DNA of 64,000 nt from Chthoniobacterales bacterium (lineage in GTDB: Bacteria > Verrucomicrobiota > Verrucomicrobiia > Chthoniobacterales > UBA6821): NCBI GenBank assembly GCA_049282095.1, contig JBAPTI010000004.1, forward strand, positions 1,770 to 65,769, written 5' to 3'. Below the pieces are notes generated by a model. That model saw only the letters and a list, made by a program, of their open reading frames with translations, did no database searches and was not told the origin of the DNA. Positions 45,059-64,000 of this stretch are shown here, in pieces (the first letter of the stretch is position 1; each line of letters opens with the position of its first letter). The position numbers and the translations under genes were made by a program.

Positions 45059-45133
<75 letters not shown>

Positions 45134-45633: not shown

Positions 45634-46770
45634 ATGAACATAGAGAAGTTTCACCCAGGGGAACTCCGCCAGCAGTATCACTACCAGAGCTTCCAACCCA
45701 GCCCAGTGAATCATTCCTGGACTTGGGAGGATCCCGAAATTCATAGCTTGCTGGCCGAGGCCAATAGACGCTTAGGAGAGCTCAATGGCCTCTCGTTAAT
45801 CGTCCCCGATATTGACCTCTTTATCCAGATGCATGTGGTCAAGGAGGCTCAAACCTCTAGCCGTATCGAAGGCACTCGCACGGAGATGGACGAGGCTTTG
45901 GAGGAGAGTCCTGAGCAAATTACTCCAGACAAACGTGACGACTGGCAGGAGGTGCGGAATTACATCAATGCGATGAATAGCTCGATCGAGGCGCTGGGCA
46001 CTCTACCTCTTTCGAACCGCCTCCTTTGTCAGGCACACGCTACTTTGCTCGACGGAGTGAGAGGAGAAGGCAAGACGCCCGGGGAGTTTCGACGCAGTCA
46101 AAATTGGATTGGCGGAGCCACCCTTGCAGATGCCGTCTTCATTCCGCCACATCACGAGGAAGTCCATGCTCTCATGGGTGATCTCGAGAGCCTCTGGCAC
46201 AATGAGGCCATCACCGTTCCTTACCTGATACGCATTGCAATCAGTCACTACCAGTTTGAAACAATTCATCCATTCCAAGATGGCAATGGCCGTATTGGCC
46301 GACTCCTCATAGTTCTCTACCTTGTCAGCAAGGGGCTCCTTCACCGGCCTTGTCTCTATATTTCTGATCATCTCGAGAAGCATCGCAGTGCCTACTACGA
46401 CTCTCTTATGGCCGTCCGCACCCGCGGCGATCTAGGCCAATGGATCCGATTCTTCTTGGTAGCCGTTATCGAGACCTCGAAGCGTGGAGTGGAAACCTTC
46501 CAGAAAATTCACCGCCTTCGTCAGGAAACCGCATCGCGCATCGCCACCCTTGGGCATCGAGCATCCAGGGCTCAGCAGGCTCTCGATCACATATACCGCA
46601 AACCGATTATTACTGGAGCACAGCTCGCTTCTCAACTTGGCATCAGTCAACCAACCACTGATCGACTTCTCGCCAATCTTGTAAACCTCGGCATTCTCGA
46701 GGAGTTGACCGGCAAGAAGCGCAATCGTGTATTCTGCTACCGCGAATACTACCAGCTTTTCCTTTCCTAA
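45634..46770 (+). CDS. Fic-family protein (AMPylase-type) with C-terminal winged-helix domain
   Basis: Canonical Fic motif HPFQDGNGRIGR. C-terminal ...ITGAQLASQLGISQPTTDRLLANLVNLGILEE is HTH-like. Confidence 0.85.
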   Translation: MNIEKFHPGELRQQYHYQSFQPSPVNHSWTWEDPEIHSLLAEANRRLGELNGLSLIVPDIDLFIQMHVVKEAQTSSRIEGTRTEMDEALEESPEQITPDKRDDWQEVRNYINAMNSSIEALGTLPLSNRLLCQAHATLLDGVRGEGKTPGEFRRSQNWIGGATLADAVFIPPHHEEVHALMGDLESLWHNEAITVPYLIRIAISHYQFETIHPFQDGNGRIGRLLIVLYLVSKGLLHRPCLYISDHLEKHRSAYYDSLMAVRTRGDLGQWIRFFLVAVIETSKRGVETFQKIHRLRQETASRIATLGHRASRAQQALDHIYRKPIITGAQLASQLGISQPTTDRLLANLVNLGILEELTGKKRNRVFCYREYYQLFLS

Positions 46771-46796
46771 AGGCACGAAAACAAAAGTTGGATATT

Positions 46797-47375
46797 ATGT
46801 ATCATTACTCTTGGCATCAAAGCTCTAATGTAAGCAGGCAGAAATATACCTGTGGTTTTTGCAGCTCTATTGTATCTCCAGATCATGGATACCAAACTGC
46901 AAATGGAGTCGGTCACACTGCGCGAATTTACATCTGTCCGAATTGCGGCTGTCCGACTTTCTTTGGAGCGGATAAAAAACAGGTCCCAGCAATTAGACTA
47001 GGAAACGAAGTAAAAGGGATTACAGATGAACATGTTCAATCTGCATATAATGAAGCAAGAGATTGCAGTGGTTGCGGAGCATACAGCGGTTCCGTTTTAT
47101 TATGTAGAAAACTCTTGATGAATATAGCTGTAAACCATGGCGCGAAAGCCGGGGAAAGTTTCTCTTACTATATTGATTATCTTGAGTCTAACGGATTTGT
47201 GCCTCCTAATGGAAAAGCCTGGGTTGATGTAATTAGAAAAAAAGGGAATGAGGCAACTCATGAGATTCCAATTATGAGTTCGGCAGATGCACAACAAGTG
47301 CTGCATTTTACGGAAATGCTATTGCGATTTATTTATGAGTTTCCAAGCATGATTCCCCAAGAAAATACTGTGTAA
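46797..47375 (+). CDS. Zinc-ribbon + DUF4145-like helical domain protein
   Basis: CGFC...CPNCGC ribbon. C-terminal LLCRKLLMNIAV...VIRKKGNEATHEIP resembles the DUF4145 R..GN.a.H block. ATG 46797 (TTG 46788 in the ORF track). Confidence 0.5.
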   Translation: MYHYSWHQSSNVSRQKYTCGFCSSIVSPDHGYQTANGVGHTARIYICPNCGCPTFFGADKKQVPAIRLGNEVKGITDEHVQSAYNEARDCSGCGAYSGSVLLCRKLLMNIAVNHGAKAGESFSYYIDYLESNGFVPPNGKAWVDVIRKKGNEATHEIPIMSSADAQQVLHFTEMLLRFIYEFPSMIPQENTV

Positions 47376-47444
47376 TAAAAACTTATTATATAGCTGGTTC
47401 TGTGAAATTTTTCGGAGCACACCATTAGTCAAATAATTTTACAT

Positions 47445-48272
47445 ATGAGTGATGATAACACTATTCGCGATACAGCTGATGCAATTAAAGGCATTGTAGA
47501 AGCGGTGCCCGTCTACCAAGATGTAATGCAGCCGGCAGCAAAAGAAGTGGGAGCCGCCTTACAAACCGTAGCTAAAACACTACATGTTTTACTTGCACCT
47601 GTTTCTGCTCTTGTGTGGGGATATGATAAAATCAAAGATCATGTTACAACGAAAGTAAGCGAAAAGCTTAAAGATATTCCTCCAGAGCGAATGAAGATGC
47701 CTGAGCCGAGCGTGGCAGGTCCAGCTCTTGAGGCTTTGCGATATACTGGTTATCAGGAGACGCTTCGTGATTTGTATACAAACTTACTCGCGACCTCTAT
47801 CGATTCAGCTACTGCACACCAAGCCCATCCGGCTTTTGTTGAAATTATTAAGCAGATGTCTCCCGATGAAGCGCTCATAATTCGTGCGCTTTCAACTTTG
47901 CCTATAAGGCCGATGCTCGATGTCCGATTCGAAAAGTCCGATAGTAATCTGGGCCGATGGGTGATTAGATATTTTTCTTTAGTAGCAAACGAAGCTGGCG
48001 TAAAACACACGGACCTCAGCGCTAACTATCTAATTAATCTGCAAAGACTTGGATTAATTGAACTGAGAGAGAATTACACATTGCACAGCGAAGAGGGAGA
48101 TGTATATCAGCCCCTTCGTGAGACTACTCAAGTACAAAATGTGGTAAATCAATACAATGCTCTAGATGGACATAAGACTGCATTTACCCCTGGTGCAATC
48201 ATCACCACTGAACTTGGCAATCTTTTCATTCGCGCATGTGTCATCGATGGCACTCATGCGTTAAAAGTATAA
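47445..48272 (+). CDS. Abi-alpha (DUF4393) abortive-infection-family protein
   Basis: 275 aa. PAAKEVGAAL..., PEPSVAGPALEALRY, LRDLYTNLLATSID and HPAFVEIIKQMSPDEALIIRAL match my recollection of the DUF4393 profile. Confidence 0.55.
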   Translation: MSDDNTIRDTADAIKGIVEAVPVYQDVMQPAAKEVGAALQTVAKTLHVLLAPVSALVWGYDKIKDHVTTKVSEKLKDIPPERMKMPEPSVAGPALEALRYTGYQETLRDLYTNLLATSIDSATAHQAHPAFVEIIKQMSPDEALIIRALSTLPIRPMLDVRFEKSDSNLGRWVIRYFSLVANEAGVKHTDLSANYLINLQRLGLIELRENYTLHSEEGDVYQPLRETTQVQNVVNQYNALDGHKTAFTPGAIITTELGNLFIRACVIDGTHALKV

Positions 48273-48401: not shown

Positions 48402-49448
48402 TCACCATTCACAGCAGCCCGGATTGCTGATTCTTGAGATCGAGTGGCGGAGGCGGGCTTCGCTGTATTGTTCAAACAGGGCGGGGTTTTCCTTACGGAG
48501 CCGCTGGAGTTGTTCCCGCAGCGGATCGGGAGCGGGAGGCTCTTCCTCGGGAATATTGAGGGGAGCTGGTGGCTGGGTTTCTTTTCGACGAAAGATCGAG
48601 ATGATGGAGCCCAGCAAGCCGGGGCTGGTTTCAGGCTTGGGAGCATCGGGTGGGCGGAAATCCACGCGGGAGAGCGTGGGGAAGCCCTTGGCCAGCTTAA
48701 GAAAATCCTGGGCGGACATATCGTAGATAAAGGCATCAACGCTTTCCAGTGGGGCCAATCCCAGATCCACTGCGCGCTGACGGAGCAATTCCATATCCCG
48801 CTTCAGGCCCTCTTCCTTGCGGGCTCGAACCTCCTCGGAAACTTTCGCTGAGAACATGCGGTCAAAGGTGATGTCGTCATCATCCTTTTGTTTGGTAATG
48901 CGTGGCTTAGCCGGCCTCTCTTTCTCCTCAGGCTGGCTTTTCATAAAAGCGATCATCTCCACTCGTGGTTCCGGAGGATGAGGGGGCAGCCCCAGCTCTT
49001 CCAACCGACTCCAGAGGACACGCATTCCCTCGATCTCGGGAAAGATCTTCACAAAGAGCTCTCCTCCCATCAGCTCGAAATGGGCTCTGAGAGCCTCCAA
49101 CTTCGATGACAAGGCCTCCTGGTGCTGGTCGCGAAGGGTTTGATTGATTCCGCCGTTCATTCGCTCGGGATCACGTGGGAGCAGTTCGCAGGATTCGAGT
49201 TTGATACGCTCACGGATGAGACCCTCCAGAAGGCTGGAGGGCCAACCTTCGAGCTTCTGCTCCGAGATGATGTGATTTCCGGTGAATAGCCCGGCCATGA
49301 ACCTCCATCTCTTTTCGTGATACGCCTTCGTCTCGGGCAGGGCATCCCACGTGCTGCGCATCCGAGCGTAGGCGACGAAGAGATCGGGGGGAGAGATGTA
49401 GGGATCGGGTGGGGGCTTCATCTCAATCTCATGTTGGTGGGCGTTCAT
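48402..49448 (-). CDS. Hypothetical protein (orphan, charged central region)
   Basis: 348 aa, codon usage looks coding. 94 nt downstream of the M28 gene on the same strand. No motif recognised. Confidence 0.55.
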   Translation of the reverse strand: MNAHQHEIEMKPPPDPYISPPDLFVAYARMRSTWDALPETKAYHEKRWRFMAGLFTGNHIISEQKLEGWPSSLLEGLIRERIKLESCELLPRDPERMNGGINQTLRDQHQEALSSKLEALRAHFELMGGELFVKIFPEIEGMRVLWSRLEELGLPPHPPEPRVEMIAFMKSQPEEKERPAKPRITKQKDDDDITFDRMFSAKVSEEVRARKEEGLKRDMELLRQRAVDLGLAPLESVDAFIYDMSAQDFLKLAKGFPTLSRVDFRPPDAPKPETSPGLLGSIISIFRRKETQPPAPLNIPEEEPPAPDPLREQLQRLRKENPALFEQYSEARLRHSISRISNPGCCEW

Positions 49449-50486: not shown

Positions 50487-50559
50487 CCACCTTACCTCCA
50501 TCCGACGACAGGAAGTGTCTATCCCCATCTTTTTTTCCAGGTGGACACTTCCTGTCGTC
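50487..50559 (-). promoter_or_regulatory. Conserved 5' element copy 1 (33-nt block + 16-bp perfect hairpin)
   Basis: Block 50487-50519 is 30/33 identical to 52492-52524. Stem gacgacaggaagtgtc (50504-50519) pairs with gacacttcctgtcgtc (50544-50559), loop 24 nt. Ends 29 nt upstream of the M28 ATG. Confidence 0.6.
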
Positions 50560-50680
50560 CCCGGTTATGCGATAATCCTCCTTGAAACAGAAGATCAGAA
50601 AGGGCAGCTGACCGGGCGCGAGCCCGTTATGGTGGGATTGCCCGTCCACCCTGTTTCCCTCAACTCAACCACCCCCAAAT

Positions 50681-52491: not shown

Positions 52492-52563
52492 CCACTCTAC
52501 CTCCATCCGACGACAGGATGTGTCCACCTGGTGGTTTTTGACGGAATCACGACATCTCCTGTC
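52492..52563 (-). promoter_or_regulatory. Conserved 5' element copy 2
   Basis: Block 52492-52524 (ccactctacctccatccgacgacaggatgtgtc). Imperfect partner arm gacatctcctgtc at 52551-52563. Ends 54 nt upstream of ATG 52437. Confidence 0.6.
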
Positions 52564-53385: not shown

Positions 53386-53841
53386 TTACTCTCTTTGTTT
53401 CAGGGATTCAAGAGCGTCGTCGTATGCTTGTTGTAATCTAGCAGCTTTTTGAGCTCTCTCTCTTAGAGTTCTGGAGGTTACCTTCCCTGACTTTTTTGGG
53501 TGACTTGCAGCTAAGAGTTTTTCATATGCAGCATGAATCTCTTGCTCAGTTGCATATGGCTTGATTTTAAAAACTCTCCACCAAGGGTCGCGATCATCAG
53601 GAAGCGAAGACAACACGATTATTTTTTCTGATTTAGATAAAGAACTTTCCTTTTTTGAAAATGGATCTTTTGAAAGCCTGAAATCAGGAAACTTTATTTC
53701 GCCCCTTTGCACTTTCCCACGTAGCCACCCAGCGAAATCTTTACTTTTACTATACAAGTATCCAATAGCCGCTCGTTTTTGTTGTGGGGAAAGTTGATCC
53801 CAGTAACTTTTTGCTGTTTCAAACGCAGTTTTCTTTTTCAT
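53386..53841 (-). CDS. J-domain-like protein (HPD replaced by HPK)
   Basis: C-terminal ATEQEIHAAYEKLLAASHPKK...AQKAARLQQAYDDAL follows the J-domain helix II / loop / helix III pattern. AT-rich gene. Confidence 0.45.
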   Translation of the reverse strand: MKKKTAFETAKSYWDQLSPQQKRAAIGYLYSKSKDFAGWLRGKVQRGEIKFPDFRLSKDPFSKKESSLSKSEKIIVLSSLPDDRDPWWRVFKIKPYATEQEIHAAYEKLLAASHPKKSGKVTSRTLRERAQKAARLQQAYDDALESLKQRE

Positions 53842-54382
53842 CGTCACGCCTGCTCGTTTCTTTTTTAGTAACTAACACATTTTTTATATCTTGAAAGAAT
53901 TTGGGCCAACTAAAATAGGCAAACGCCTTTCTAATCTCTAGCATCTTTTTACTGATGTCATATTCATCATTTTCCATAAATGTTTTAACAAAATCTGATG
54001 TTGTTCTCCATCTGTCTGCGCCGACTATAAACAATAGATCTTCATCTTTGAAATCACCACAAATAATCCTCCACCAAATTGTTGAAAATGGTATTGGGCC
54101 TATTATATCGGATCCTTCTTTTCTATAAAAAACCCATGGATCCTCGTCATTCTCTCGACCTGTAAAAGAAATATTCTTCCCGTGTACTGGGGAAGGAGGT
54201 ATTGCGCTACTAAGAGGCTGTGCATTGTCTATTATGTCATTAATCTTAAACAAATCATCTTCTTTAAGATGACCAATACGAAACAATGATATCACAATAT
54301 CATAAGGCCAAGAACCCAACTCGGAACCATCTCTATAGATTGTTAGATATTTTTTATCTTTTTTCTGAATATCGGATTTCAT
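53819..54382 (-). CDS. Protein with two GYF_2 (DUF4339)-like domains
   Basis: YLTIYRDGSELGSWPYDIVISLFRIGHLKEDDLF and WVFYRKEGSDIIGPIPFSTIWWRIICGDFKDEDLLFIVGADRW. AT-rich gene that overlaps the next gene. Confidence 0.5.
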   Translation of the reverse strand: MKSDIQKKDKKYLTIYRDGSELGSWPYDIVISLFRIGHLKEDDLFKINDIIDNAQPLSSAIPPSPVHGKNISFTGRENDEDPWVFYRKEGSDIIGPIPFSTIWWRIICGDFKDEDLLFIVGADRWRTTSDFVKTFMENDEYDISKKMLEIRKAFAYFSWPKFFQDIKNVLVTKKETSRRDDEKENCV

Positions 54383-54434: not shown

Positions 54435-57365
54435 TTATTGAATGGGCTTGATGCAATCAGAGGTGATGTAGGGGGTTGGATCGGTGATGATTGGGGGGAG
54501 GCCGGGGGCGGTGACGGGTTGGCCGGCGGTGATTCTCGCGGCGACGGATTGGTTGAGCGCGAGAAGCTGGGCGAGGAGGTCGGCCTTGGGATCGAAGCCG
54601 TAGGCCGAAAGGACAGCGGCATCGAGTGCGGCATGGGCATCCTTCAGCGGATTGGCTCCGGGGAGTTCGAGGGTGCGGTAGAGAGCACGGAGGCCGCCTT
54701 TGAGGTGTTGGATCGCCTCTTCGCGGATGCGGCGAACTTCACGCCCCGCTGCGGCCACGGCCTCGATAGCCTTGGCACTAGGGTCCTGTGGCCACGGGAA
54801 GGTGTCGAAGACAGATTCCGCACTGTAACGGAAATCGGATTTTAGTTTTCCGCATTTGGTAACAAACCAAAGCCAGTGCAGATGGGACTGAAGGATTCCG
54901 AAGCTGTAATCATCGGCAAATCCAAAAACCTGAATCAGATTGCTGGGCCTGAAAGCCTGATCGATGAATAGGAAGACCGGTCGCTTGGTGACATAGGCAC
55001 ACGCGAGGTAGCGAGGAAGGGGACGCAGGACGGAGAGCATCTCCGGACGGCCAAAGCTGAGTTGCCACCAGCGGGCTAGGAAGGCTTTGTGATGGCCGCG
55101 CATGTTCCCATCAGCATCTTTGCCATCCTCAGCCTTCTTCTCTCGATCGGGCAGGACTTGGGTCTTCACCCAGTCAAAGGCTCCACTGTATCCCGCTGCC
55201 GTGAGTTGATCCATCTGCTCGAAATCCAAAACAAATCGGCTGCTTGTACCCTTAGTCAGAACCTCTAGCCCATTCAAATACGGGTGAATCACCGCAGATG
55301 ATTTTGGATCTTTAATCAGAATCTCGTCTCTCTGTTCCTTCGTGAGCAAAAATCCTTCATGTCCGAGCATCTGGCCATTGAAACAGCGCTGGGGTTTGGT
55401 ATTGCAGTCGAGTGGCCCGGCTGTGCTGACATCGGTCTGATCGCTCAGGGCTGAGTTGATGACCGGAACATCACGGAAGTTGAGTTCGTATTCTTTCGAG
55501 GCTTTTTTCCCCTGTTTCTTCCACTGCTTTTTTGTCGCGGCGGAGGGCTCGACCTTATGCCAGAGGCGGCGGGTTCTCGGTAGGAGAGCGGGCTCCTGGG
55601 TCTTCACCCAATTCGCAATGGAGACGTGGACATTCGCCTCGCCGCTCCAGGGCTGGTTATCGACGGCCTCCACGATGGTGCCCTCCTTCACGATGTGATC
55701 GAGGCCGCCGACACGGGAGGCGTTGTTGCGGATGTTCTGTGTGCCGACGAGTCCGGCGCGGCCAGCTACGGGATCGGCAGGAGTACAAGGAGGCAAGTGG
55801 TCATGGGCGCGGCGGAACCAATAGACGCAGAAGTCGGCCATGCCGGGCACTTCGGGGTAGAGGGCGCGGAGTTTCTTCACGTAGTCGGGGCCGAGCTCGG
55901 GCTTGAGCAACTTGGCTCCGAGGAAGGGGGGATTTCCGATGATGGCGTCGGCCTTGGCCCATTCGGTGCGGGTGGCTTTTCCATCGGCTCCCTCGACGAG
56001 GAGGGCATCAGAGGCGATGAAGTTTCGATCGAGATTGTCGAGTGGCAGGGGACGCTCGGTGATGTGGAGTTCATCGATGGCGAGCTTCCTCGCGATCATC
56101 ATTGTGACCTTGGCCAGCTCAACGGCGAAGGGGTTGATGTCCATGCCGTGGAAGTTCTGTGCCGAGAGGAAGGAGAGGCGCATTTGGTCGCCGGCGGCCT
56201 TGCTCGGGAACTCGGTGTCGAGGCGTTCGTAGATGCGGGCCTCGAGGCGCTTCATCTCGCGGTAGGCAATGTAGAGGAAGTTCCCGGAGCCACAGGCGGG
56301 GTCGAGAACCTGGAACTCCTGAAGGCGGTGGAGGAGCTTTCCAAGGTCACGGGCGGTGGTGGCCTTCTCGATCTCCTTGCGCCATGGCTCGACGATTGTA
56401 GGGCCGACGATCTTCATGATGTCGGCGGGGTGGGTGAAGTGGGCGCCGGAGGCGTGGCGCTCTTCCTTGTCCAAGGTCTGCTCGAAGACGGTGCCGAAGA
56501 TCTCGGGCTGGACCTTGGACCAGTCGGAGGCCGCGCATTCCCGGAGCAGGACGATCTCGGGGCCTGTGAGTTCGAGCTCGGCGGGCTGACTGAAGACGCC
56601 GCCATTGAAGTAGGGGACGCCCTTGAAACGGCCTCCGGCGTTTCCGGAGGAGTTGTTCATCGCTCGGAAGAGGCCTCCAATGAGGTCGTAGCTGGTCTTC
56701 TCATCGACCTCGTCAAGGAGGCGGGTGACGAAATAGCGCTCCAAGAGCCCGATATCCTCGGCAAAGAAGGCGATCAGGATCTGGAGGATGAAGCGTTGGG
56801 CGAGAGGACGATCGACGCCCCGGGAGACGAGAAGATTGAAGCACTTCGCGAGCTTCGCCGCGGCCTCACGGGTGACGGCGACGTGCTCATTCTCAAAGAC
56901 GGGCTTGGGCTGGTCGGGGAAGAGGAAGGCGAGGGAGCCGTAGTTCTCTGCAAGGTCGGCCAGCTTGACCCTTCCTACGGGTGAATCCATCTGGGTCTCG
57001 AAGTCGTAGATCTCGAACTCGTCGAAGTTGCAGAGGATGACGTAGCGTGGGCGGCCGGGAACGAGTCGCGTCCAGTAGTCGAAGGCCTGGCGGTAGTGTT
57101 TCGAGAGCACGGTGCCGCGCTTCTTCATCTCGATCAGGACGAGCGGCTTCCAGACGAAGTCGGCAAAGGCGGTGCCGCCGCCATCCTCAGAGGCCTTGCG
57201 AACGCGGTACTCGGGCTCACCTCCCACATCGAGCGATCCGGGGTGACCGAATGCCTGAAAGAGGCGGTCGAGGAAGATGTGGGCTTCTCCCTTCTCATCC
57301 CCCTTCACATGGAGGCGCGCCCACTCGATAAAGGAGGAGAGTTTGTCGGTGCGGGAATCGCTCAT
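54435..57365 (-). CDS. MmeI-family type IIL restriction-modification enzyme (fused nuclease / N6-adenine methyltransferase / TRD)
   Basis: 976 aa. N-terminal D...ExK nuclease block (FADFVWKPLVLIEMKKRG), methyltransferase motif I VLDPACGSGNFL and motif IV IIGNPPFLG. Confidence 0.75.
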   Translation of the reverse strand: MSDSRTDKLSSFIEWARLHVKGDEKGEAHIFLDRLFQAFGHPGSLDVGGEPEYRVRKASEDGGGTAFADFVWKPLVLIEMKKRGTVLSKHYRQAFDYWTRLVPGRPRYVILCNFDEFEIYDFETQMDSPVGRVKLADLAENYGSLAFLFPDQPKPVFENEHVAVTREAAAKLAKCFNLLVSRGVDRPLAQRFILQILIAFFAEDIGLLERYFVTRLLDEVDEKTSYDLIGGLFRAMNNSSGNAGGRFKGVPYFNGGVFSQPAELELTGPEIVLLRECAASDWSKVQPEIFGTVFEQTLDKEERHASGAHFTHPADIMKIVGPTIVEPWRKEIEKATTARDLGKLLHRLQEFQVLDPACGSGNFLYIAYREMKRLEARIYERLDTEFPSKAAGDQMRLSFLSAQNFHGMDINPFAVELAKVTMMIARKLAIDELHITERPLPLDNLDRNFIASDALLVEGADGKATRTEWAKADAIIGNPPFLGAKLLKPELGPDYVKKLRALYPEVPGMADFCVYWFRRAHDHLPPCTPADPVAGRAGLVGTQNIRNNASRVGGLDHIVKEGTIVEAVDNQPWSGEANVHVSIANWVKTQEPALLPRTRRLWHKVEPSAATKKQWKKQGKKASKEYELNFRDVPVINSALSDQTDVSTAGPLDCNTKPQRCFNGQMLGHEGFLLTKEQRDEILIKDPKSSAVIHPYLNGLEVLTKGTSSRFVLDFEQMDQLTAAGYSGAFDWVKTQVLPDREKKAEDGKDADGNMRGHHKAFLARWWQLSFGRPEMLSVLRPLPRYLACAYVTKRPVFLFIDQAFRPSNLIQVFGFADDYSFGILQSHLHWLWFVTKCGKLKSDFRYSAESVFDTFPWPQDPSAKAIEAVAAAGREVRRIREEAIQHLKGGLRALYRTLELPGANPLKDAHAALDAAVLSAYGFDPKADLLAQLLALNQSVAARITAGQPVTAPGLPPIITDPTPYITSDCIKPIQ

Positions 57366-57454
57366 AGGGGAGATGTGAGACGTTTAGCGGATGAGCGACT
57401 CTCTGGCGAGGGGATTGACTGACTGGAGCAGGCTCTTGATGCGAACAAAGGGGG

Positions 57455-57919
57455 TTATCGGAAATTTCCGTGAATCCATCGGGCGTGGGCAAAGCAGCTC
57501 TCGATGATCCGATCACGAACGAGGTGTTCGGCCTCGGTATCCGACAACTTCCGATCCTCCATGACCGGGAGGATGATTTCCTCGTGAAGCTCCCAATCGC
57601 TCATGCGCGGAAGCTTCCCGTAGAGCGCGAAGAGATCGGCGGCCATGTCCCAGTAGTAGCGCCACATCCCGGTGAGGCTTTCCGAAACCTCGGAATCCCT
57701 CACCCACTCACAGAATGCCTGATACGAGGCGAATCTCCCCTCGATCAACGCATCAGGCCCCATGACCTCGTCGCAGAGATCGCCCAGGATGCTGACTGCT
57801 GTCATCAGGAAGGAGCGCATGGCGCCCGCCCCGGTGAGGAGATGGTAGGTGTCCGAGGCTCTTTCTGACTCCGAAAGGAAGTCGTCGATGGTGAGTCGGG
57901 GTTGCTGGTGGCTGGCCAT
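57455..57919 (-). CDS. Hypothetical protein (about 154 aa)
   Basis: ATG 57919 (MASHQQPRL...) lies 17 nt after the upstream gene stop. No motif recognised. Confidence 0.5.
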   Translation of the reverse strand: MASHQQPRLTIDDFLSESERASDTYHLLTGAGAMRSFLMTAVSILGDLCDEVMGPDALIEGRFASYQAFCEWVRDSEVSESLTGMWRYYWDMAADLFALYGKLPRMSDWELHEEIILPVMEDRKLSDTEAEHLVRDRIIESCFAHARWIHGNFR

Positions 57920-57936
57920 GGGGTGGAAAAAGTCTG

Positions 57937-58650
57937 TCACCGGAGGTGCTTGGGAACGAAGTAGTTCCGGATCCACCATACCCCCACCATGAAGCAGGGC
58001 CCTGAAAACATGAAGGCTCCGGGGGCGAAGGACTCGCTCTGCTCGGAAAGAAACACGAGCAGGATCGCCGAGATACCCACCAGGATCGCGGTGAAGCCCA
58101 GAAAGAGAAAGAAGCCATCCTGATAGCCGTCCCGGTGGAAATCGCCGATCATGCGGTTCCAGTTGTCCTTGAAGCTCTTGGGATCGGGACGACTGTCAAA
58201 CAACTGTGCAAATGCACCAAGCATCACAAGCGGGCCGAGAATCCACCCGATGAATGGCAGGAGCAGCAGCAGGAGACCCAGAATCAGGCATCCGAGAGAT
58301 TCCTTGGCCCGTTCTTTGAAGGGTTTGTAACCGCTTGGAAAACTGGCTGCCAAGTAGGGTGCGATGTTTCGTTGTCCAGGAGCGGGTGAATTCAAGTAAG
58401 GTTTCTCCTCTTGAGTAGCATCTAGGGTTGGTGTCACTCGAACCATGGATGACGAATGCAGGAGTGCAGGCTCTCTGAGAAAGACTTCCAGTGGCTTCCA
58501 TTTACCTCCCTCTTCTCTAGCCAAATCAGAAAGCGTGATCCGTCCCTCCACAAGCATGGCGTCGATGAGATCCATGCCGAAGGGGCCGTAGATCTCGTCT
58601 TCGCGAAGGATGAAGATCATCGTCTTCTCAGAAGGCCACGGTTGTTTCAT
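57937..58650 (-). CDS. GYF_2 domain + four-TM membrane protein
   Basis: MIFILREDEIYGPFGMDLIDAMLVEGRITLSDLAREEGGKWKPL, then hydrophobic helices. Start is ambiguous (58668 TTG, 58650 ATG, 58620 ATG). Confidence 0.55.
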   Translation of the reverse strand: MKQPWPSEKTMIFILREDEIYGPFGMDLIDAMLVEGRITLSDLAREEGGKWKPLEVFLREPALLHSSSMVRVTPTLDATQEEKPYLNSPAPGQRNIAPYLAASFPSGYKPFKERAKESLGCLILGLLLLLLPFIGWILGPLVMLGAFAQLFDSRPDPKSFKDNWNRMIGDFHRDGYQDGFFLFLGFTAILVGISAILLVFLSEQSESFAPGAFMFSGPCFMVGVWWIRNYFVPKHLR

Positions 58651-58715
58651 GAACCCACTCTTCCACAACCGGGTAGACAGGAGGTGTCTAGTCAGCGGGA
58701 ATAAATTCCCTGCGC

Positions 58716-59783
58716 CTATTCACCATAGACCGATGCCAATGCGCGGGCTTTCTCCGCGATCGTTTTCCGGAGGAGAGCGGGGGCGATGACCTTCACAGTG
58801 GCTCCCCAGCCCAAAATCCATGGCTCGATCTCGAGGAAGGTCGGCTTGGCGAAGGGGAGTTCCATACGGATGCGCCCACCGGCAAGGGGAGTCGTCTTCT
58901 GCTCAGGGTGCCAGAGAGTCTCCGAGGCTCGTTGGGCCGCACCCGCCTCGAACTCGAGTACGACGGGCTGCTTAGGCTTCCGGTCGCTGGCCACAATCCC
59001 GAAACTATAACGGAAGCTCTCAGAGGGTTCCCTTGAATCGGGTACGAATGTCGCTTCGGTAATCCGAGCATTGCTGATGCGAGCGAATTTGAGGGTTCGG
59101 CGTTCGGAGGTTCCTGCCTTGGTGGCATGGAGGTACCAGGAGCCGTTGCGCATGAAGACGAAGCGGGGTTCGAGTGTTCTGGAATCCTTAGGGCCGACGG
59201 ATGGCTTGTAGTCGAGGACGACACGGCGGCTCTCGCGGATAGCCCGGTGGAGGAGCTCGAAGAGGCGGACGTCTTCCTTTCCGATCTCGGGCTTTCCCTC
59301 GAAGCGGAAGTGGACGGAGCTCTCCCACTTCTTCCAGTCGGTGGTGCCGGTGAGGATGCCGAAGGTGTGCTCGAAGGACTCGATCATGCTGCGCCCGATT
59401 TCTGTGGAGCGGTAGGGCTCTAGGCACTGGCGCAGGAAGTGGAGCGTGAGCAGGTCACGGTCCCCGATCTGGACGATCGGTAGGTGCTTGAGATTACCAC
59501 GCAGGGCGTAGCCCCGCCGAGCCTTGTCATGGACAATCTCGTTCGTCTGTTTTTCTCCTTCGATATTGCCCAGAAGCGCATTCAGTTGCGCGATGTCGCG
59601 CTGAATCGTTCGAGTATCGACCTCGCAGATCTTGGAGAGCTTGGCGAGTGAGGGGTAACGCTTGTTCTGAACCTCCGAAAAAATCAGGAAAAGCCGATGG
59701 ATGTGATCACGGGAGGTGTTTCCATGGATCTGCTTACGTTTTTTAGCGGGCGGCTTGCCGGATGACTTTCTAGATGAGGCCAT
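58716..59783 (-). CDS. HTH + WYL-domain transcriptional regulator (BrxR/CapW-like architecture)
   Basis: N-terminal HTH (SLAKLSKICEVDTRTIQRDIAQL), literal WYL triad (NGSWYLHAT), C-terminal WCX-like tail (EPWILGWGATVKVIAP). Confidence 0.75.
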   Translation of the reverse strand: MASSRKSSGKPPAKKRKQIHGNTSRDHIHRLFLIFSEVQNKRYPSLAKLSKICEVDTRTIQRDIAQLNALLGNIEGEKQTNEIVHDKARRGYALRGNLKHLPIVQIGDRDLLTLHFLRQCLEPYRSTEIGRSMIESFEHTFGILTGTTDWKKWESSVHFRFEGKPEIGKEDVRLFELLHRAIRESRRVVLDYKPSVGPKDSRTLEPRFVFMRNGSWYLHATKAGTSERRTLKFARISNARITEATFVPDSREPSESFRYSFGIVASDRKPKQPVVLEFEAGAAQRASETLWHPEQKTTPLAGGRIRMELPFAKPTFLEIEPWILGWGATVKVIAPALLRKTIAEKARALASVYGE

Positions 59784-59845
59784 AGCTTTATCCGCCACCG
59801 ATAACCCCTCACACACGGCCTGACGAGTGGATTTCTAGCTCTTGT

Positions 59846-60115
59846 CTAGAGGGTCTCTTCCGGTGGAAGAAAGTCCTTCACATCCATGGGATGCTTCCGT
59901 TTTAACAAGAAGCTATAGAGCCTCCATTCCGGATCCGGAACGGTTTGCTTGTATGGCGGAAAAATGACCGTCGTCGTCCTCAGGCCGTCGACTGCCTCCT
60001 GGCGGTAGAAGCTTTCGACCTGCTTGGGGCGGAAGACGAAGTCGTTGATGATGACAAAGTCAGAGTAGTTGTCCGGTGCGATGCTGTATTTGTTGTTGGG
60101 TCCTGTGATGGGCAT
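59846..60115 (-). CDS. Hypothetical protein (89 aa)
   Basis: ATG 60115. Overlaps the relaxase 3' end by 56 nt. No motif recognised. Confidence 0.35.
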   Translation of the reverse strand: MPITGPNNKYSIAPDNYSDFVIINDFVFRPKQVESFYRQEAVDGLRTTTVIFPPYKQTVPDPEWRLYSFLLKRKHPMDVKDFLPPEETL

Positions 60116-61166
60116 GGTGTTGTTGGTTGTAGTGTTGGTGTTCTAGGAGATAGGTACGTTTGAGCTTGGTAAGGGTCTGCTGCATCTGGCGGAGAGAACG
60201 GCATTGAGCAGCGACTCCGAGTTTTTCCCCAGCTCGTAGCAGGGGGTTCTTTCTGGCCATCAAAACCTTTTCGGCTGCCCGTGCGGCACGAAGGAGAGTC
60301 AGCTGTTTCTTCTTTTCGGCAATGGTCGCTTCTAGCCCTAAGATCGACTCGTAGGATTGGCGCAAATGGGATGCCGCCTGGTGATCCACGTCAATCAAGG
60401 CGATCCGCTGGGCAGCTGAAAGCCTTGGCACAATCGCTAACTTTTCTTGATCGAGACGCTTCGTCAGAGACTCCTCGACCTTCTGCTGATTGGAGAGGAA
60501 TTCGCCTCGGAGCTGATTCTCCCGCTCGAACCATTCTCTCATGAAAACCATCTGGTTTTTATGCCTCCCGGGATGTCGGGACATGCTGCATCCAACGTAT
60601 CGTCCCTTCGCACTTCTGGGACACAGGGCGACGTGAACATGGAGGTTATCCGTGTCGTGATGGAGCCCGTAGGCATAGCCAATCGAGTCACTCCGATGGA
60701 ACTTCTCGGCGAACCGTTCCATCACCTTTTTGACACTGGAAATCACCACCTGATCGGGGCTGATCCCGGCCTTTACGAGAGCATCGTGCTGCTCGGTCGA
60801 CATCGAAAAAACGAGCCGATGAGCCACGACAGGCTGCTTCGCCTGAGATCCAAAACGATTCAGATGATGCCTCCAGACCTCGGTGATTCTCCTCTTCCTT
60901 TCCTCATTGGAAAGTTTGCTAGGAGCGGTGCTTGTCCCATCTGGATTCCGGCGAATCGCGTGATGCAAAAAGCCCCCGACATGAACCTGACCGAGTGATT
61001 CTTTTGAGGCATAATCCGTAAATCCCTTCAGCTTTTTTCCGACTTCTTCATCGAGCTTTTTGGCAGCACGAAGGGATGATTTTCGTCCGGAACTCTCGTC
61101 CAGATATTCCAGATCGAGCCTCCCCCGCGCCGTCGACTTGTGCGCGAAAATGAGGCCGTTCTTCAC
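60060..61166 (-). CDS. Relaxase/mobilisation nuclease (MobA/VirD2 family)
   Basis: Histidine triad context GLHHDTDNLHVHVAL. GTG start overlaps the upstream stop (GTGA). Confidence 0.6.
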   Translation of the reverse strand: MKNGLIFAHKSTARGRLDLEYLDESSGRKSSLRAAKKLDEEVGKKLKGFTDYASKESLGQVHVGGFLHHAIRRNPDGTSTAPSKLSNEERKRRITEVWRHHLNRFGSQAKQPVVAHRLVFSMSTEQHDALVKAGISPDQVVISSVKKVMERFAEKFHRSDSIGYAYGLHHDTDNLHVHVALCPRSAKGRYVGCSMSRHPGRHKNQMVFMREWFERENQLRGEFLSNQQKVEESLTKRLDQEKLAIVPRLSAAQRIALIDVDHQAASHLRQSYESILGLEATIAEKKKQLTLLRAARAAEKVLMARKNPLLRAGEKLGVAAQCRSLRQMQQTLTKLKRTYLLEHQHYNQQHHAHHRTQQQIQHRTGQLL

Positions 61167-61393
61167 GAAAGTTCCTCCAGAAATGCAATCGCCTGATCGA
61201 GCTTGGTCTCGATCCTTTCCAGCGCAGCGGGATCGATTTTGCTGTCGAGTTCTGCAGCGTAGATCAGCGCTTCGAGTGTCTCGGCTTTGGTGCGAAAACC
61301 ACGCGCCTCGTGCAACCGATGGAATCGCTCATACGCCTCGTCGCTGAGCAGAAACTCCATGCGCCTTGTGTTGGGCTTTTGATGATGCGGCAT
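61163..61393 (-). CDS. MobC-like / ribbon-helix-helix relaxosome accessory protein
   Basis: 76 aa. RRMEFLLSDEAYERFHRL beta-strand/helix pattern. Translationally coupled to the relaxase. Confidence 0.45.
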   Translation of the reverse strand: MPHHQKPNTRRMEFLLSDEAYERFHRLHEARGFRTKAETLEALIYAAELDSKIDPAALERIETKLDQAIAFLEELS

Positions 61394-63290: not shown

Positions 63291-64000
63291 TCATTTGATT
63301 GTATCAAGATTATCCAGATTCATTGCTATCCCGAAATTGCGCTCAAAGTGGAAGATATTCCATCGACTGACCTGTAGACGATCATGGCCCTTTGCTATGG
63401 CATCCCTTAAGGCATTTGCATCAGTGATTCCGGTAATAATCGCTAGCTTCTTAAAGTTCTTGTGTTGTGCTGCTCGGATGAAGAAGGGAAATTCGGTTGC
63501 ATAACCTGCGTAATGCATCAGCTGAGGATACCAGCGGGTATCTGCTGTGATAAACGAGATCAAAAGTGTCAACAGGTCGGCTTGGATAATGTCCGTAAAC
63601 GGTAGATCTTGGCGTGTTGATTGTCGCTTTATCAGTTCCGCAGCTGGACTGTAAAGCCTTTGACCTTCCGGCGCCAAGACGGTGTTTAGGGTTTCGGAAT
63701 AGCCGTAAAAATCGTCGAACTTTCCAAAACGATCAAGTCCATGCCTCTCTGTTGACGGAAGGATGTAATGCGATGTGTAAATATTGTGAAGATCCTCATA
63801 TGCACGGACTTTCAGCAAAGCCGCAATGATGTAAAGAAATGTCTCGTAAACAAAAAGCTTGTGCGCCTCGAACCAAGCATCGTTCCAAACTGTAACCTCT
63901 TCGGGGCGTGCCTTGATTTCTCGCAGTCGCTCAAGGAGCTGAATCAAGGATTCACTGAAGTCTTCAGATGGAGACACTTCCCCCTCAATGAGAACCCAGT
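63291..64000 (-). CDS. Hypothetical protein, 5' end probably outside the window
   Basis: The ORF-track start at 63977 is a GTG, and the frame stays open upstream to the window edge (...WVLIEGE-VSPSEDF). No motif recognised. Confidence 0.45.
   Translation of the reverse strand, partial: WVLIEGEVSPSEDFSESLIQLLERLREIKARPEEVTVWNDAWFEAHKLFVYETFLYIIAALLKVRAYEDLHNIYTSHYILPSTERHGLDRFGKFDDFYGYSETLNTVLAPEGQRLYSPAAELIKRQSTRQDLPFTDIIQADLLTLLISFITADTRWYPQLMHYAGYATEFPFFIRAAQHKNFKKLAIITGITDANALRDAIAKGHDRLQVSRWNIFHFERNFGIAMNLDNLDTIK

What the first reader, a model, noticed from the sequence alone, without database searches (positions are those of the whole stretch)
54435..59783. WYL-regulator-led operon: GYF-membrane protein, unknown 154-aa protein and an MmeI-like type IIL RM enzyme
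Four co-directional genes have short gaps. They are an HTH-WYL regulator (an architecture known from BrxR/CapW regulators placed at the head of BREX and CBASS loci), a GYF_2 plus 4-TM protein, an unrecognised 154-aa protein, and a 976-aa MmeI-like nuclease-methyltransferase. MmeI-family enzymes are normally described as stand-alone single-polypeptide systems. A WYL-controlled version with two accessory genes, one membrane-bound, is not an arrangement I know. The accessories could modulate or sense for the RM enzyme, or the four genes could form a composite defence unit.
Basis: partly seen in the sequence, partly recalled or inferred. Interest (0 to 1): 0.66.

Follow-up and report, generated by a model that had tools for sequence, protein, structure and literature searches.

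The report
Swappable restriction cassette behind WYL regulator
The four genes are real, but they are a patchwork: an ordinary self-contained MmeI-type restriction enzyme has dropped into a variable gene slot of some freshwater Verrucomicrobia, a slot headed by a WYL regulator with its own recurring promoter box.

Summary
Observation confirmed. On the minus strand lie an HTH-WYL-WCX regulator, a GYF_2-like membrane protein, an orphan 154-aa protein and an intact 976-aa MmeI-family enzyme, with gaps of 65, 17 and 89 nt.

Interpretation mostly not supported. None of 80 MmeI relatives (54-76% identity) carries any of the three neighbours. Within the source lineage every junction is broken somewhere: the WYL/GYF-TM/154-aa trio precedes a type I RM cluster instead of MmeI (L090); GYF-TM/154-aa/MmeI occurs without WYL (L006); 154-aa plus MmeI occurs without either (L092); WYL plus GYF-TM occurs with no RM at all (L098). 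Synonymous divergence against L006 is 0.20 for MmeI but 1.0-1.3 for the two upstream genes, so MmeI is a recently exchanged cassette.

Partly rescued: the WYL gene does head the locus. A 13-bp palindrome, GACAC(Y)TCCTGTC, lies 25 nt upstream of GYF-TM and at other local promoters. It is absent from about 1 Mb of control DNA and present in 11 of 22 WYL-homologue loci. Its TGTC-N12-TAnnnT geometry matches PafBC/SiwR-type WYL activators. This is inferred, not shown.

The 154-aa family is tiny and has no sequence or fold match. Verdict: a new variant of a known kind, of moderate interest.

The parts
58716..59783 (-). WYL-family transcription factor (HTH_11-WYL-WCX), 355 aa. It heads the variable locus.
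   Evidence: Pfam WYL 47.3 bits, WCX 46.5 bits, HTH_11 26.4 bits. Best solved relatives are DriD (7tzv, 7u02, 8tp8) and PafBC (6sj9, 7p5x) at E about 1e-6; BrxR and CapW are not hit at E<=0.01. An 87%-identical orthologue heads a related locus next to purL with no mobilisation genes (L098).
59784..59833 (-). About 50 nt of conserved 5' region of the WYL gene. The left edge of the WYL module and the junction with the mobilisation genes.
   Evidence: DNA homology with L098 begins at window 59833, just after the stop of the 89-aa gene.
58676..58688 (-). Palindromic box GACACCTCCTGTC, 25 nt upstream of the GYF-TM start codon. Candidate WYL operator, a '-26-like' promoter element.
   Evidence: Exact 13-mer is conserved downstream of WYL in L098/L101, although the next gene differs there; L102 has a one-mismatch copy. 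Enrichment statistics. It is the only box on the gene strand between WYL and the DnaJ-like gene.
57937..58650 (-). GYF_2-like N-terminal domain plus a 3-4 TM membrane protein, 237 aa. A lineage-restricted resident gene of the locus.
   Evidence: hhalign probability 89%, E 2e-6 to the chromosomal GYF_2-Yip1 protein. Only 9 clusters in 5.8 billion proteins. dN/dS 0.15-0.19. AF2 model poor, pLDDT 50.
57455..57919 (-). Orphan acidic all-helical 154-aa protein. The last gene of the resident module, lying at the junction with the cargo.
   Evidence: 14 clusters and 21 representatives in 1.84 billion. AF2 pLDDT 87.4, pTM 0.83. No PDB or BFVD match with E<0.6. Homology with L090 ends at 57451, just past its stop codon. 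Highest dN/dS of the neighbourhood apart from the overlapping 89-aa ORF, 0.23-0.35.
54435..57365 (-). MmeI-family type IIL/IIG restriction-modification enzyme, 976 aa. A self-contained, recently exchanged cassette.
   Evidence: Pfam and PADLOC. 5HR4 alignment with D69/E79/K81, DPACGSGNFL 355-364 and NPPF 478-481 intact. Cassette edges at about 57411 and 54447. dS 0.20 against 1.0-1.3 for the upstream genes versus L006. 0/80 relatives share the neighbours.
54927..55428 (-). Target-recognition region of the MmeI-like gene, replaced in the otherwise 98%-identical locus L093.
   Evidence: No DNA match across this interval, while the flanks are 98% and 84.5% identical. L093 MmeI is 86% identical at protein level, against 98-100% for WYL, GYF-TM and the 154-aa protein.
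53386..54382 (-). Two low-GC genes downstream of MmeI: a 187-aa unknown and a 153-aa DnaJ-like protein. A separate foreign insert.
   Evidence: GC 0.35 and 0.40 against about 0.6 for the neighbours. Absent from L006 and L093, where a 159-aa gene takes their place. DnaJ hit 25.2 bits, below cutoff.
52512..52563 (.). Inverted pair of boxes between w385 and Metallophos: GACACATCCTGTC on (-) and GACATCTCCTGTC on (+).
   Evidence: The (-) copy is followed by N12 then TAGAGT.
50507..50556 (.). Inverted pair of boxes (GACACTTCCTGTC on each strand) upstream of the M28 peptidase gene and of a small conserved ORF or element on the + strand.
   Evidence: The (-) copy is followed by N12 then TAAGGT.
59846..61393 (-). 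Mobilisation module directly upstream of WYL: MobC-like (76 aa), relaxase-like (368 aa) and an 89-aa ORF.
   Evidence: Weak Pfam hits to Relaxase, MobL and MobC_2. Travels with integrase and HTH_17 genes in L093/L095. Absent upstream of WYL in L098/L101.
45059..45133 (+). tRNA-Val marking the chromosome/island boundary, where GC falls from about 0.63 to about 0.50.

Best explanation
The locus is a mosaic, not a dedicated four-gene system.

(1) A resident WYL-family transcription factor heads a lineage-specific variable locus of freshwater Verrucomicrobia.

(2) Its likely DNA target is a 13-bp palindrome, GACAC(Y)TCCTGTC. The box sits 11-14 nt upstream of a TAnnnT -10 box, often 6 nt before the start codon (leaderless-like), in front of several local genes. 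In the window these are the GYF-TM gene, w385 and the M28 peptidase; in relatives also Metallophos, the w348 family, DUF6717 and the 154-aa gene. The geometry TGTC-N12-TAnnnT with no -35 box matches PafBC/SiwR-type WYL activators, which sense ssDNA and recruit RNA polymerase by 'sigma adaptation'. The favoured reading is therefore damage- or infection-induced activation.

(3) GYF-TM and the 154-aa gene form the last resident transcription unit before a cargo slot.

(4) The MmeI-like gene is an ordinary, complete, single-polypeptide type IIL enzyme sitting in that slot as an independently exchanged cassette. It methylates one strand of its site and cuts unmodified DNA at a distance, as MmeI does, and needs no partner. 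It has no box of its own, and no promoter- or terminator-like signal separates it from the box promoter. It may therefore receive read-through transcription from that promoter.

Shown: gene content, mosaic boundaries, discordant divergence, absence of the neighbours from MmeI relatives, box distribution and geometry.

Inferred: that the WYL protein binds the box, the direction of regulation, the signal, and co-transcription.
For: - **MmeI completeness:**
- **Independence of MmeI:** 0/80 relatives have WYL, GYF-TM or 154-aa homologues. No recurrent Pfam family among 106 upstream ORFs. Alternative arrangements are seen in L090, L092, L006, L098, L096 and L102. Homology breakpoints lie at 57451 (L090), about 57400 (L006) and 58621 (the GYF-TM start), with a TRD swap in L093. 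dS is 0.20 for MmeI against 1.05 and 1.28 for GYF-TM and the 154-aa gene.
- **WYL box enrichment (<=1 mismatch):** 0 hits in 45 kb of the window's chromosomal part, 5 in the 19-kb island, 0 in 1.009 Mb of MmeI-relative loci, and 17 in 185 kb of WYL-homologue loci, in 11 of 22 loci. This includes WYL proteins only about 50% identical whose neighbouring genes are otherwise unrelated.
- **WYL box geometry:** the TGTC-to--10 spacer is 12 nt at w385 and M28, and 12-14 nt in the 11 contexts where a start codon follows closely.
- **Literature:** PafBC motif tGTCgg(N10)tA(N3)T with a -26 element (PMC8635444). SiwR is a homodimeric WYL activator that binds a palindrome at -26 of adjacent genes (PMC10693628).
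- **Closest solved relatives:** DriD and PafBC.
Against: - No experiment links the WYL protein to the box. The box could belong to another regulator that travels with these islands.
- Half of the WYL-homologue loci (11 of 22) show no box, though many are short contigs.
- The box upstream of GYF-TM has a poor -10 (AAGAGT).
- PafBC's motif is non-palindromic and PafBC is a heterodimer.
- A palindrome overlapping the -35 region is equally compatible with a BrxR/CapW-like repressor.
- L006 and L096 carry the locus with no WYL gene in the DNA fetched.
- The control DNA (MmeI-relative loci) comes mostly from other genera.
- The 154-aa gene sits next to RM genes in several arrangements, which leaves room for a functional link that this explanation treats as incidental.
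Confidence: 0.68

Rival explanations
1. One reading: the four genes form one composite defence unit, with the GYF-TM and 154-aa proteins sensing for or modulating the MmeI-like enzyme under WYL control.
For: The genes are co-directional with short gaps and no detectable internal terminator. The same four-gene order recurs in L001 and L093-L095.
Against: Those recurrences are 98-100% identical copies of the same element, not independent conservation. 0/80 MmeI relatives have the neighbours. Every adjacency is broken in related loci. MmeI has a different dS and its own recombination edges. A type I RM cluster replaces it in L090.
Confidence: 0.07
2. The 154-aa protein (and, in other loci, the 62-aa + 117-aa pair) is a generic RM-associated accessory. 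It could be an establishment or restriction-alleviation factor or a controller that travels at the 5' edge of RM cassettes on mobile DNA.
For: The 154-aa gene lies directly 5' of RM genes in four arrangements of this lineage: MmeI in the window, L006 and L092, and type I in L090. Distant homologues lie beside a type I RM + McrBC cluster (L005) and about 350 nt upstream of an HsdM-like ORF (L009, tblastn). The protein is acidic, D+E 27 against K+R 14. It has the highest dN/dS locally apart from the overlapping 89-aa ORF. The 62/117 pair precedes RM genes in L090, L092 and L102.
Against: The four close arrangements are not independent, being one lineage and one hotspot. L003 has no RM gene within 8 kb. 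Its homology block goes with GYF-TM, not with MmeI (dS 1.28 against 0.20). It has no similarity to ArdA, Ocr, C-proteins or any solved or viral fold. RM genes are common in any defence island, so adjacency is weak evidence.
Confidence: 0.18
3. The WYL protein is a BrxR/CapW-type repressor. It keeps the downstream genes, including the RM cassette, off until a signal relieves repression, and the palindrome is a classical operator.
For: It has the HTH-WYL-WCX architecture at the head of a locus that repeatedly holds RM systems, as described for BrxR homologues with type I, III and IV restriction (PMC9122601). The palindromic site overlaps the promoter.
Against: No sequence hit to BrxR or CapW structures at E<=0.01, while DriD and PafBC are hit. 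No inverted repeat was seen upstream of its own gene by eye or by the box search. Box position and spacing copy the PafBC/SiwR activator promoters, and the target promoters lack a -35 box.
Confidence: 0.27
4. The box has nothing to do with the WYL protein. It is the site of another regulator or sigma factor, or a promoter element that spreads with these island genes.
For: L096 and L092 carry boxes with no WYL gene in the DNA available. L003 has one copy. 11 of 22 WYL loci lack it.
Against: The box lies directly downstream of WYL or drives its divergent neighbour in loci whose other genes are unrelated (L103, L111, L114, L116). There are zero copies in about 1.05 Mb of control DNA.
Confidence: 0.2

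Closest known systems
MmeI and the MmeI family of type IIL (IIG) restriction-modification enzymes (structure 5HR4)
   Same: Same domain order: N-terminal PD-ExK nuclease, helical spacer, gamma-class N6-adenine methyltransferase, TRD and C-terminal domain. Catalytic and SAM-binding motifs are conserved. It is a single polypeptide with no conserved partner genes in 80 relatives. TRD swapping between close alleles is seen, as expected for this family.
   Different: Nothing essential. Here the gene sits in a cargo slot behind a WYL-headed locus and may be transcribed by read-through from a regulated promoter.
BrxR-family WYL regulators at the head of mosaic defence islands (PMC9122601; Luyten et al. 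2022)
   Same: HTH-WYL-WCX protein at the 5' end of a locus whose downstream content is mosaic and repeatedly includes restriction systems.
   Different: No detectable sequence match to BrxR or CapW structures. No inverted repeat was seen upstream of its own gene. The candidate site lies in downstream promoters at an activator-like position. Most genes it precedes are not recognisable defence genes.
PafBC, SiwR and DriD: ssDNA-sensing WYL transcriptional activators (PMC8635444, PMC10693628, PMC9186387)
   Same: They are the closest solved sequence relatives. Target promoters have TGTC, then 12 nt, then TAnnnT, with no -35 box, as in the PafBC consensus. As with SiwR, the site is palindromic and controls genes next to the regulator.
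   Different: Different phylum (Verrucomicrobia rather than Actinobacteria or Alphaproteobacteria). The regulon is a local island of unknown-function genes, not DNA-repair genes. Binding, signal and direction of regulation are untested.
Defence-island hotspots and integrative mobilisable elements carrying RM cargo
   Same: Conserved flanks with variable RM and Abi cargo. The whole region lies in an island beginning at tRNA-Val, and mobilisation genes (relaxase, MobC; an integrase in the related locus L093) lie nearby.
   Different: The hotspot has a set of resident genes (WYL, DUF6717, w348 family, GYF-TM, Metallophos, w385, M28 peptidase) that share a promoter box.

Membership tests
MmeI-family type IIL/IIG RM enzymes | N-terminal PD-ExK nuclease domain (MmeI_N) with catalytic D...ExK | tested here: met
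   Pfam MmeI_N 86.6 bits. FADFVWKPLVLIEMKK aligns to MmeI FVDLFWPGILLIEMKS, giving D69, E79 and K81. The identity of the MmeI catalytic residues is from memory of the MmeI literature.
MmeI-family type IIL/IIG RM enzymes | Gamma-class N6-adenine methyltransferase with a SAM motif and NPPF/Y | tested here: met
   MmeI_Mtase 109.3 bits. DPACGSGNFL at 355-364 and NPPF at 478-481.
MmeI-family type IIL/IIG RM enzymes | Fused TRD and C-terminal domain in one polypeptide | tested here: met
   MmeI_TRD 63.6 bits. MmeI_C 23.5 bits, just below the cutoff of 27. PADLOC REase_MTase_IIG 1120 bits over residues 5-975.
MmeI-family type IIL/IIG RM enzymes | Stand-alone: no obligatory partner genes | tested here: met
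   0/80 relatives share neighbours. No recurrent family upstream.
MmeI-family type IIL/IIG RM enzymes | Cuts about 20/18 nt from the site and methylates one strand | not testable with these tools
   Needs enzyme assays or methylome data.
BREX (PglX) / DISARM (DrmMI) multi-gene systems | MmeI-like methyltransferase accompanied by PglZ/BrxC or DrmA/B/C | tested here: not met
   PglX and DrmMI models match only partially and far below the IIG model (39 and 264 bits against 1120). None of the seven flanking proteins scanned (six with no PADLOC hit at all; the WYL protein matches only WYL-type models) matches a BREX or DISARM component.
BrxR-family WYL regulators | HTH-WYL-WCX architecture | tested here: met
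BrxR-family WYL regulators | Sequence relationship to BrxR/CapW | tested here: not met
   phmmer against all PDB chains at E<=0.01 returns DriD, PafBC and other WYL proteins, but not BrxR or CapW.
BrxR-family WYL regulators | Binds inverted repeats at its own promoter and represses downstream defence genes | tested here: inconclusive
   No inverted repeat was noted by eye in the conserved 50 nt upstream, and the box search found no copy there; no dedicated inverted-repeat search was run. The palindrome lies downstream instead. Binding and repression are not testable here.
PafBC/SiwR-type WYL activators (sigma adaptation) | Target promoters with a -26 element (TGTC) about 12 nt upstream of TAnnnT and no -35 box | tested here: met
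   Spacer of 12 nt at w385, M28, L092 154-aa, L096 w348-like and L003; 13-14 nt at two others. It is weaker at the window's GYF-TM promoter, where the -10 is AAGAGT. Consensus from PMC8635444.
PafBC/SiwR-type WYL activators (sigma adaptation) | WYL domain binds ssDNA, and the protein activates transcription | not testable with these tools
   Needs binding and transcription assays.
GYF_2 domain proteins | GYF_2 domain (PF14237) | tested here: inconclusive
   17.5 bits for the window protein and 22.1 bits for the L006 orthologue, both below the 25.8 cutoff. One family member has a precomputed PF14237 hit. hhalign to a bona fide paralogue gives probability 89%, E 2e-6.
Anti-restriction DNA mimics (ArdA, Ocr) or RM controller proteins, considered for the 154-aa protein | Sequence or fold similarity to a known member | tested here: not met
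   No Pfam, PHROG, NCBIfam or PADLOC hit. No Foldseek hit with E<0.6 in PDB or BFVD, from a model with pLDDT 87.

The most novel reading that the evidence does not exclude
The WYL protein and its 13-bp box define a previously undescribed, PafBC/SiwR-like ssDNA-triggered regulon in Verrucomicrobia. It switches on a conserved set of island genes of unknown function (GYF-TM membrane protein, 154-aa protein, DUF6717, w348 family, Metallophos, M28 peptidase) together with whatever restriction cassette sits in the cargo slot. That would make this an inducible defence or stress island in which the orphan 154-aa protein, always at the RM junction, controls establishment or activity of the incoming RM system.
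Probability: 0.15. Interest if true: 0.65.

Novelty: new variant of a known kind. Interest (0 to 1): 0.36.

Why it matters
As a 'new composite MmeI system' the finding does not hold. The enzyme is an ordinary stand-alone type IIL cassette, so annotation pipelines can treat it as such.

Three things are worth keeping:
- **A dissected hotspot.** RM cassettes (MmeI-like with different TRDs, type I, another IIG) are exchanged behind a fixed regulator.
- **A testable cis element.** The 13-bp box extends the PafBC/SiwR promoter logic (-26 element plus -10, no -35) to a WYL regulator in Verrucomicrobia. If confirmed, WYL-headed islands could include activator-driven as well as BrxR-type repressor-driven ones.
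- **Unknown protein families to test.** The 154-aa family, the GYF-TM family and a 62/117-aa pair sit at RM junctions and are candidates for experimental work.

Tried and rejected
- **Fold of the 154-aa protein.** The model is good (pLDDT 87), but Foldseek against PDB and BFVD gave nothing below E 0.6. The top hit, MtlR/YggD, has TM 0.35-0.46 and is not significant.
- **Profile search with the 154-aa family.** Only 21 small proteins in 1.84 billion representatives; the ten distant members scanned have no Pfam domain, and none looks like a fusion.
- **Structure of GYF-TM.** pLDDT 50, unusable, so the last fold search was not spent on it.
- **The downstream 187-aa protein as a double GYF protein.** It looked that way by eye, but hhalign gives probability 1.6%, so this was rejected.
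- **Sigma-70 and terminator scans.** Promoter-like counts were at chance level. Terminator-like sites were slightly above the shuffle mean, and none lay in an intergenic gap of the array.
- **Rfam scan of the island.** Only the tRNA.
- **The mobilisable element as owner of WYL.** Rejected, because WYL orthologues head the same locus next to purL without mobilisation genes.
- **BREX or DISARM membership.** Rejected.
- **Fast protein evolution as the cause of the identity step between the 154-aa gene and MmeI.** Rejected, because the step is also present at synonymous sites.

Full report
**1. What is there**

All four genes lie on the minus strand.

| Gene | Window coordinates | Size | Main evidence |
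|---|---|---|---|
| WYL regulator | 58716-59783 | 355 aa | Pfam HTH_11, WYL and WCX |
| GYF-TM | 57937-58650 | 237 aa | GYF_2 sub-threshold in Pfam at 17.5 bits; hhalign to the chromosomal GYF_2-Yip1 paralogue at 41508-42386, probability 89%, E 2e-6; 3-4 hydrophobic helices |
| 154-aa protein | 57455-57919 | 154 aa | No match in Pfam, PADLOC, PHROGs or NCBIfam |
| MmeI-like enzyme | 54435-57365 | 976 aa | All MmeI Pfam domains; PADLOC REase_MTase_IIG 1120 bits end to end |

The MmeI-like enzyme aligns to MmeI (5HR4, E 1.7e-64). The nuclease D69/E79/K81, the SAM motif DPACGSGNFL and NPPF are all intact. The gaps between genes are 65, 17 and 89 nt. All four genes evolve under purifying selection, with dN/dS 0.06-0.35.

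**2. Setting**

GC falls from about 0.63 to about 0.50 at a tRNA-Val (45059-45133), which marks the start of an island running to the window's end. Directly upstream of the WYL gene lie an 89-aa ORF, a relaxase-like gene and a MobC-like gene. Further on are an HTH_17 excisionase-like gene and a TIR/SEFIR gene. Related contigs add a tyrosine integrase. Downstream of MmeI are two low-GC genes (GC 0.35 and 0.40), then a Metallophos gene on the other strand, then w385, w118, an M28 peptidase and a 348-aa gene.

**3. Is the four-gene order conserved?**

Across the MmeI family it is not. I fetched 80 loci from one-genome-per-species references that encode relatives at 54-76% identity, from Verrucomicrobiota, Planctomycetota, Betaproteobacteria and others. 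None has a tblastn match (E<=1e-3) to the WYL, GYF-TM or 154-aa proteins within 7 kb. A Pfam scan of 106 ORFs lying just upstream of these genes found no recurrent family: PIN in 3, SLFN_AlbA_2 in 2, the rest singletons.

**4. The source lineage**

The 154-aa and GYF-TM families are tiny, with 14 and 9 clusters in 5.8 billion proteins. Their contigs give a set of alternative arrangements, read here in the direction of transcription.

| Loci | Arrangement |
|---|---|
| Window, L001, L093-95 | relaxase, 89 aa, WYL, GYF-TM, 154 aa, MmeI |
| L090/91 | Same head (WYL 93%, GYF-TM 90%, 154 aa 79%), then 62 aa, 117 aa, HsdM, EcsC, HsdM, ..., HsdS. A type I-like cluster replaces MmeI. |
| L092 | 154 aa, 62 aa, 117 aa, MmeI (94%), with no WYL or GYF-TM on the 7.7-kb contig |
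| L006-08 | DUF6717, 339 aa, GYF-TM (71%), 154 aa (58%), MmeI (96%), with no WYL |
| L098-101 | purL, then WYL (87%), DUF6717, 346 aa, GYF-TM (73%), 230 aa, 127 aa, EcsC. No RM gene, no 154-aa gene, no mobilisation genes. |
| L096/97 | 344 aa, GYF-TM, then small opposite-strand genes. No WYL, 154-aa or MmeI-like gene; an N6_N4 methyltransferase/ResIII pair lies about 2.4 kb upstream. Flanked by the same core genes as window 39.5-45 kb. |
| L102 | WYL, DUF6717, w348-like, 62 aa, 117 aa, then a different IIG enzyme (30% identical) |

Distant 154-aa homologues (40-49% identical) sit in other islands without MmeI (L003, L005, L009). Every adjacency of the proposed operon is therefore broken somewhere.

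**5. Module boundaries**

- Homology with L090 stops at 57451, just past the 154-aa stop codon.
- Homology with L006 starts at 58621, at the 5' end of GYF-TM. It jumps from 65-81% to 92-100% identity at about 57400, in the 154-aa/MmeI intergenic region.
- Homology with L098 covers the WYL gene plus 50 nt upstream and, separately, GYF-TM.
- In L093, which is 98% identical elsewhere, about 500 bp of the MmeI TRD region has no DNA match.
- The identity step against L006 is also present at synonymous sites: dS is 1.05 for GYF-TM, 1.28 for the 154-aa gene, 0.20 for MmeI and 0.35 for Metallophos.

MmeI therefore has a separate and more recent history. It is a cassette in a cargo slot.

**6. What survives of 'WYL-led'**

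The WYL gene heads the locus in several arrangements, including ones without mobilisation genes. While aligning its 3' intergenic region I found a 13-nt palindrome, GACACCTCCTGTC. It is conserved in L098 even though the next gene there is different.

- **Where the box occurs.** In the window it lies 25 nt upstream of the GYF-TM start. It also occurs as inverted pairs upstream of w385 and M28. In relatives it lies 24-26 nt upstream of the starts of the 154-aa gene (L092), a w348-like gene, Metallophos and DUF6717.
- **Enrichment.** With at most one mismatch there are 0 copies in the window's 45 kb of chromosome, 5 in its 19-kb island, and 0 in 1.009 Mb of MmeI-relative loci. There are 17 in 185 kb around 22 WYL homologues fetched from metagenomes, spread over 11 of the 22 loci.
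- **Link to WYL.** In loci where the WYL protein is only about 50% identical and the other genes are unrelated, the box sits next to WYL and drives its neighbour. That neighbour is a vWA-like protein (by its DxSGS motif, not scanned) in L111, L114 and L116, and a small basic protein in L103, L110 and L115.
- **Geometry.** The layout is box, 11-14 nt, TAnnnT, often 6 nt, then ATG. That is TGTC-N12-TAnnnT with no -35 box.
- **Match to known regulators.** This matches the PafBC consensus tGTCgg(N10)tA(N3)T, with its -26 element (PMC8635444). It also resembles SiwR, a homodimeric WYL activator that binds a palindrome at -26 of adjacent genes (PMC10693628). DriD and PafBC are also the closest solved sequence relatives of the window protein; BrxR and CapW are not hit.

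I therefore favour an ssDNA-responsive activator over a BrxR-type repressor, but only about evenly. A palindrome over the -35 region also suits a repressor, and nothing here tests binding.

**7. Reach of the box promoter**

The stretch from WYL to the DnaJ-like gene has only the one box, before GYF-TM. There is none before the 154-aa gene, MmeI or WYL itself. No terminator-like hairpin falls in the intergenic gaps. The MmeI cassette brings only about 45 nt of its own upstream DNA. Read-through from the box promoter into MmeI is therefore plausible but unproven.

**8. The accessory proteins**

- **154-aa protein.** It gives a confident all-helical model (pLDDT 87.4, pTM 0.83) with no significant match in PDB or BFVD. 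A profile search of 1.84 billion representatives finds 21 small proteins; none looks like a domain fusion, and the ten distant members scanned carry no Pfam domain. It is moderately acidic, with D+E 27 against K+R 14. It has three invariant cysteines and the highest dN/dS in the neighbourhood apart from the overlapping 89-aa ORF, 0.23-0.35.
- **RM adjacency of the 154-aa gene.** It lies at the RM junction in four arrangements of this lineage and near RM genes in two of three distant contexts. That keeps an RM-accessory role alive at low probability. However, the close cases are not independent, and its divergence follows GYF-TM rather than MmeI.
- **GYF-TM.** It has a GYF_2-like head and a membrane tail. 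It recurs with a 339-346-aa partner more often than with the 154-aa gene. Its function is unknown.

**9. Comparison with the known**

WYL regulators at the head of mosaic defence islands, including type I, III and IV restriction, are already described (PMC9122601). MmeI-type enzymes are a well-known stand-alone class. A full-text search for 'WYL domain' with 'type IIG' found no paper that describes this pairing.

The locus is therefore a new variant of a known kind. The new parts are the box and its PafBC/SiwR-like geometry in a verrucomicrobial WYL regulon, the resident gene set of the hotspot, and the orphan families at the RM junction.

**10. Verdict**

The 'composite four-gene RM system' is not supported. 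'WYL-headed locus' is supported in a modified form. Interest is moderate to low for the finding as posed (0.36). There is a 0.15 chance that the box-controlled island is a genuinely new inducible system.

Noticed in passing
window 58676-58688(-), 52512-52524(-)/52551-52563(+), 50507-50519(-)/50544-50556(+); also L092, L096, L098, L101-L103, L109-L116, L119: A 13-bp palindrome, GACAC(Y)TCCTGTC, recurs 11-14 nt upstream of TAnnnT boxes in front of many island genes. It is absent from about 1.05 Mb of control DNA and enriched around WYL homologues. It is a candidate WYL operator with PafBC/SiwR-like promoter geometry, often with a leaderless-like 6-nt spacing to the ATG.
   Followed up: yes
window 53386-54382 (-): The 187-aa and DnaJ-like 153-aa genes downstream of MmeI have GC 0.35 and 0.40, against about 0.6 for all neighbours. 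They are replaced by an unrelated 159-aa gene in L006 and L093, so they are a separate foreign insert. The only sigma-70-like promoter hits on this strand of the array fall inside the 187-aa gene.
   Followed up: partly
window 54927-55428 versus L093 11882-12385: The target-recognition region of the MmeI-like gene is replaced between two otherwise 98%-identical loci. This implies a recent specificity switch.
   Followed up: partly
L090 7748-8286; L092 1917-2455; L102 4126-4639: A 62-aa (possibly zinc-ribbon) plus 117-aa gene pair sits directly 5' of three different RM cargos: type I, MmeI-like, and a distant IIG enzyme. Neither protein has a family match.
   Followed up: partly
L096 9950-10354(-), L098 9826-10386, L099 1206-1898, L003 7490-7939, L005 8742-9170: Another orphan family (134-230 aa) occupies the slot after GYF-TM in loci that lack the 154-aa gene. 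It is also the immediate neighbour of the distant 154-aa homologues in L003 and L005, making it a recurring partner or alternative of the 154-aa family.
   Followed up: partly
window about 50590-50625 (+), downstream of the box at 50544-50556; L096 about 13700(-); L098 about 18190(-): A conserved stretch, GAACAGAAGATCAGAAAGGGCAGCTGACCGGG, follows a box in three divergent loci, near a called 45-46-aa ORF. It could be a small protein or an RNA. There is no Rfam hit.
   Followed up: no
window 41508-42386 (-): A chromosomal GYF_2 + Yip1 membrane protein sits in the conserved core next to the island. GYF_2-plus-membrane architectures are therefore native to this organism, and this is the closest recognisable relative of the island's GYF-TM head domain.
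   Followed up: partly
window 45634-48272 (+) and 63291-64000 (-): Other defence-like cargo lies in the same island. A gene that looks Fic-like, one that looks DUF4145-like and one that looks Abi-like (all by eye, not scanned) follow the tRNA-Val. The 3' part of a SEFIR/TIR_2 gene lies at the window's end, and is complete in L001 at 248-1681.
   Followed up: no
window 48402-49448 (-); L006 5033-7296; L096 7947-8981; L113 16990-17808: A 339-348-aa family with a shorter 270-aa paralogue, often paired with DUF6717 and preceded by the box, is a conserved member of the locus. It sits directly upstream of GYF-TM in relatives but has been displaced about 9 kb away in the window.
   Followed up: partly
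window 59846-60115 (-): The 89-aa ORF overlaps the 3' end of the relaxase gene by 56 nt. It shows dN/dS 1.37 at very low dS (0.018) against L090, so it may not be a normal protein-coding gene.
   Followed up: no
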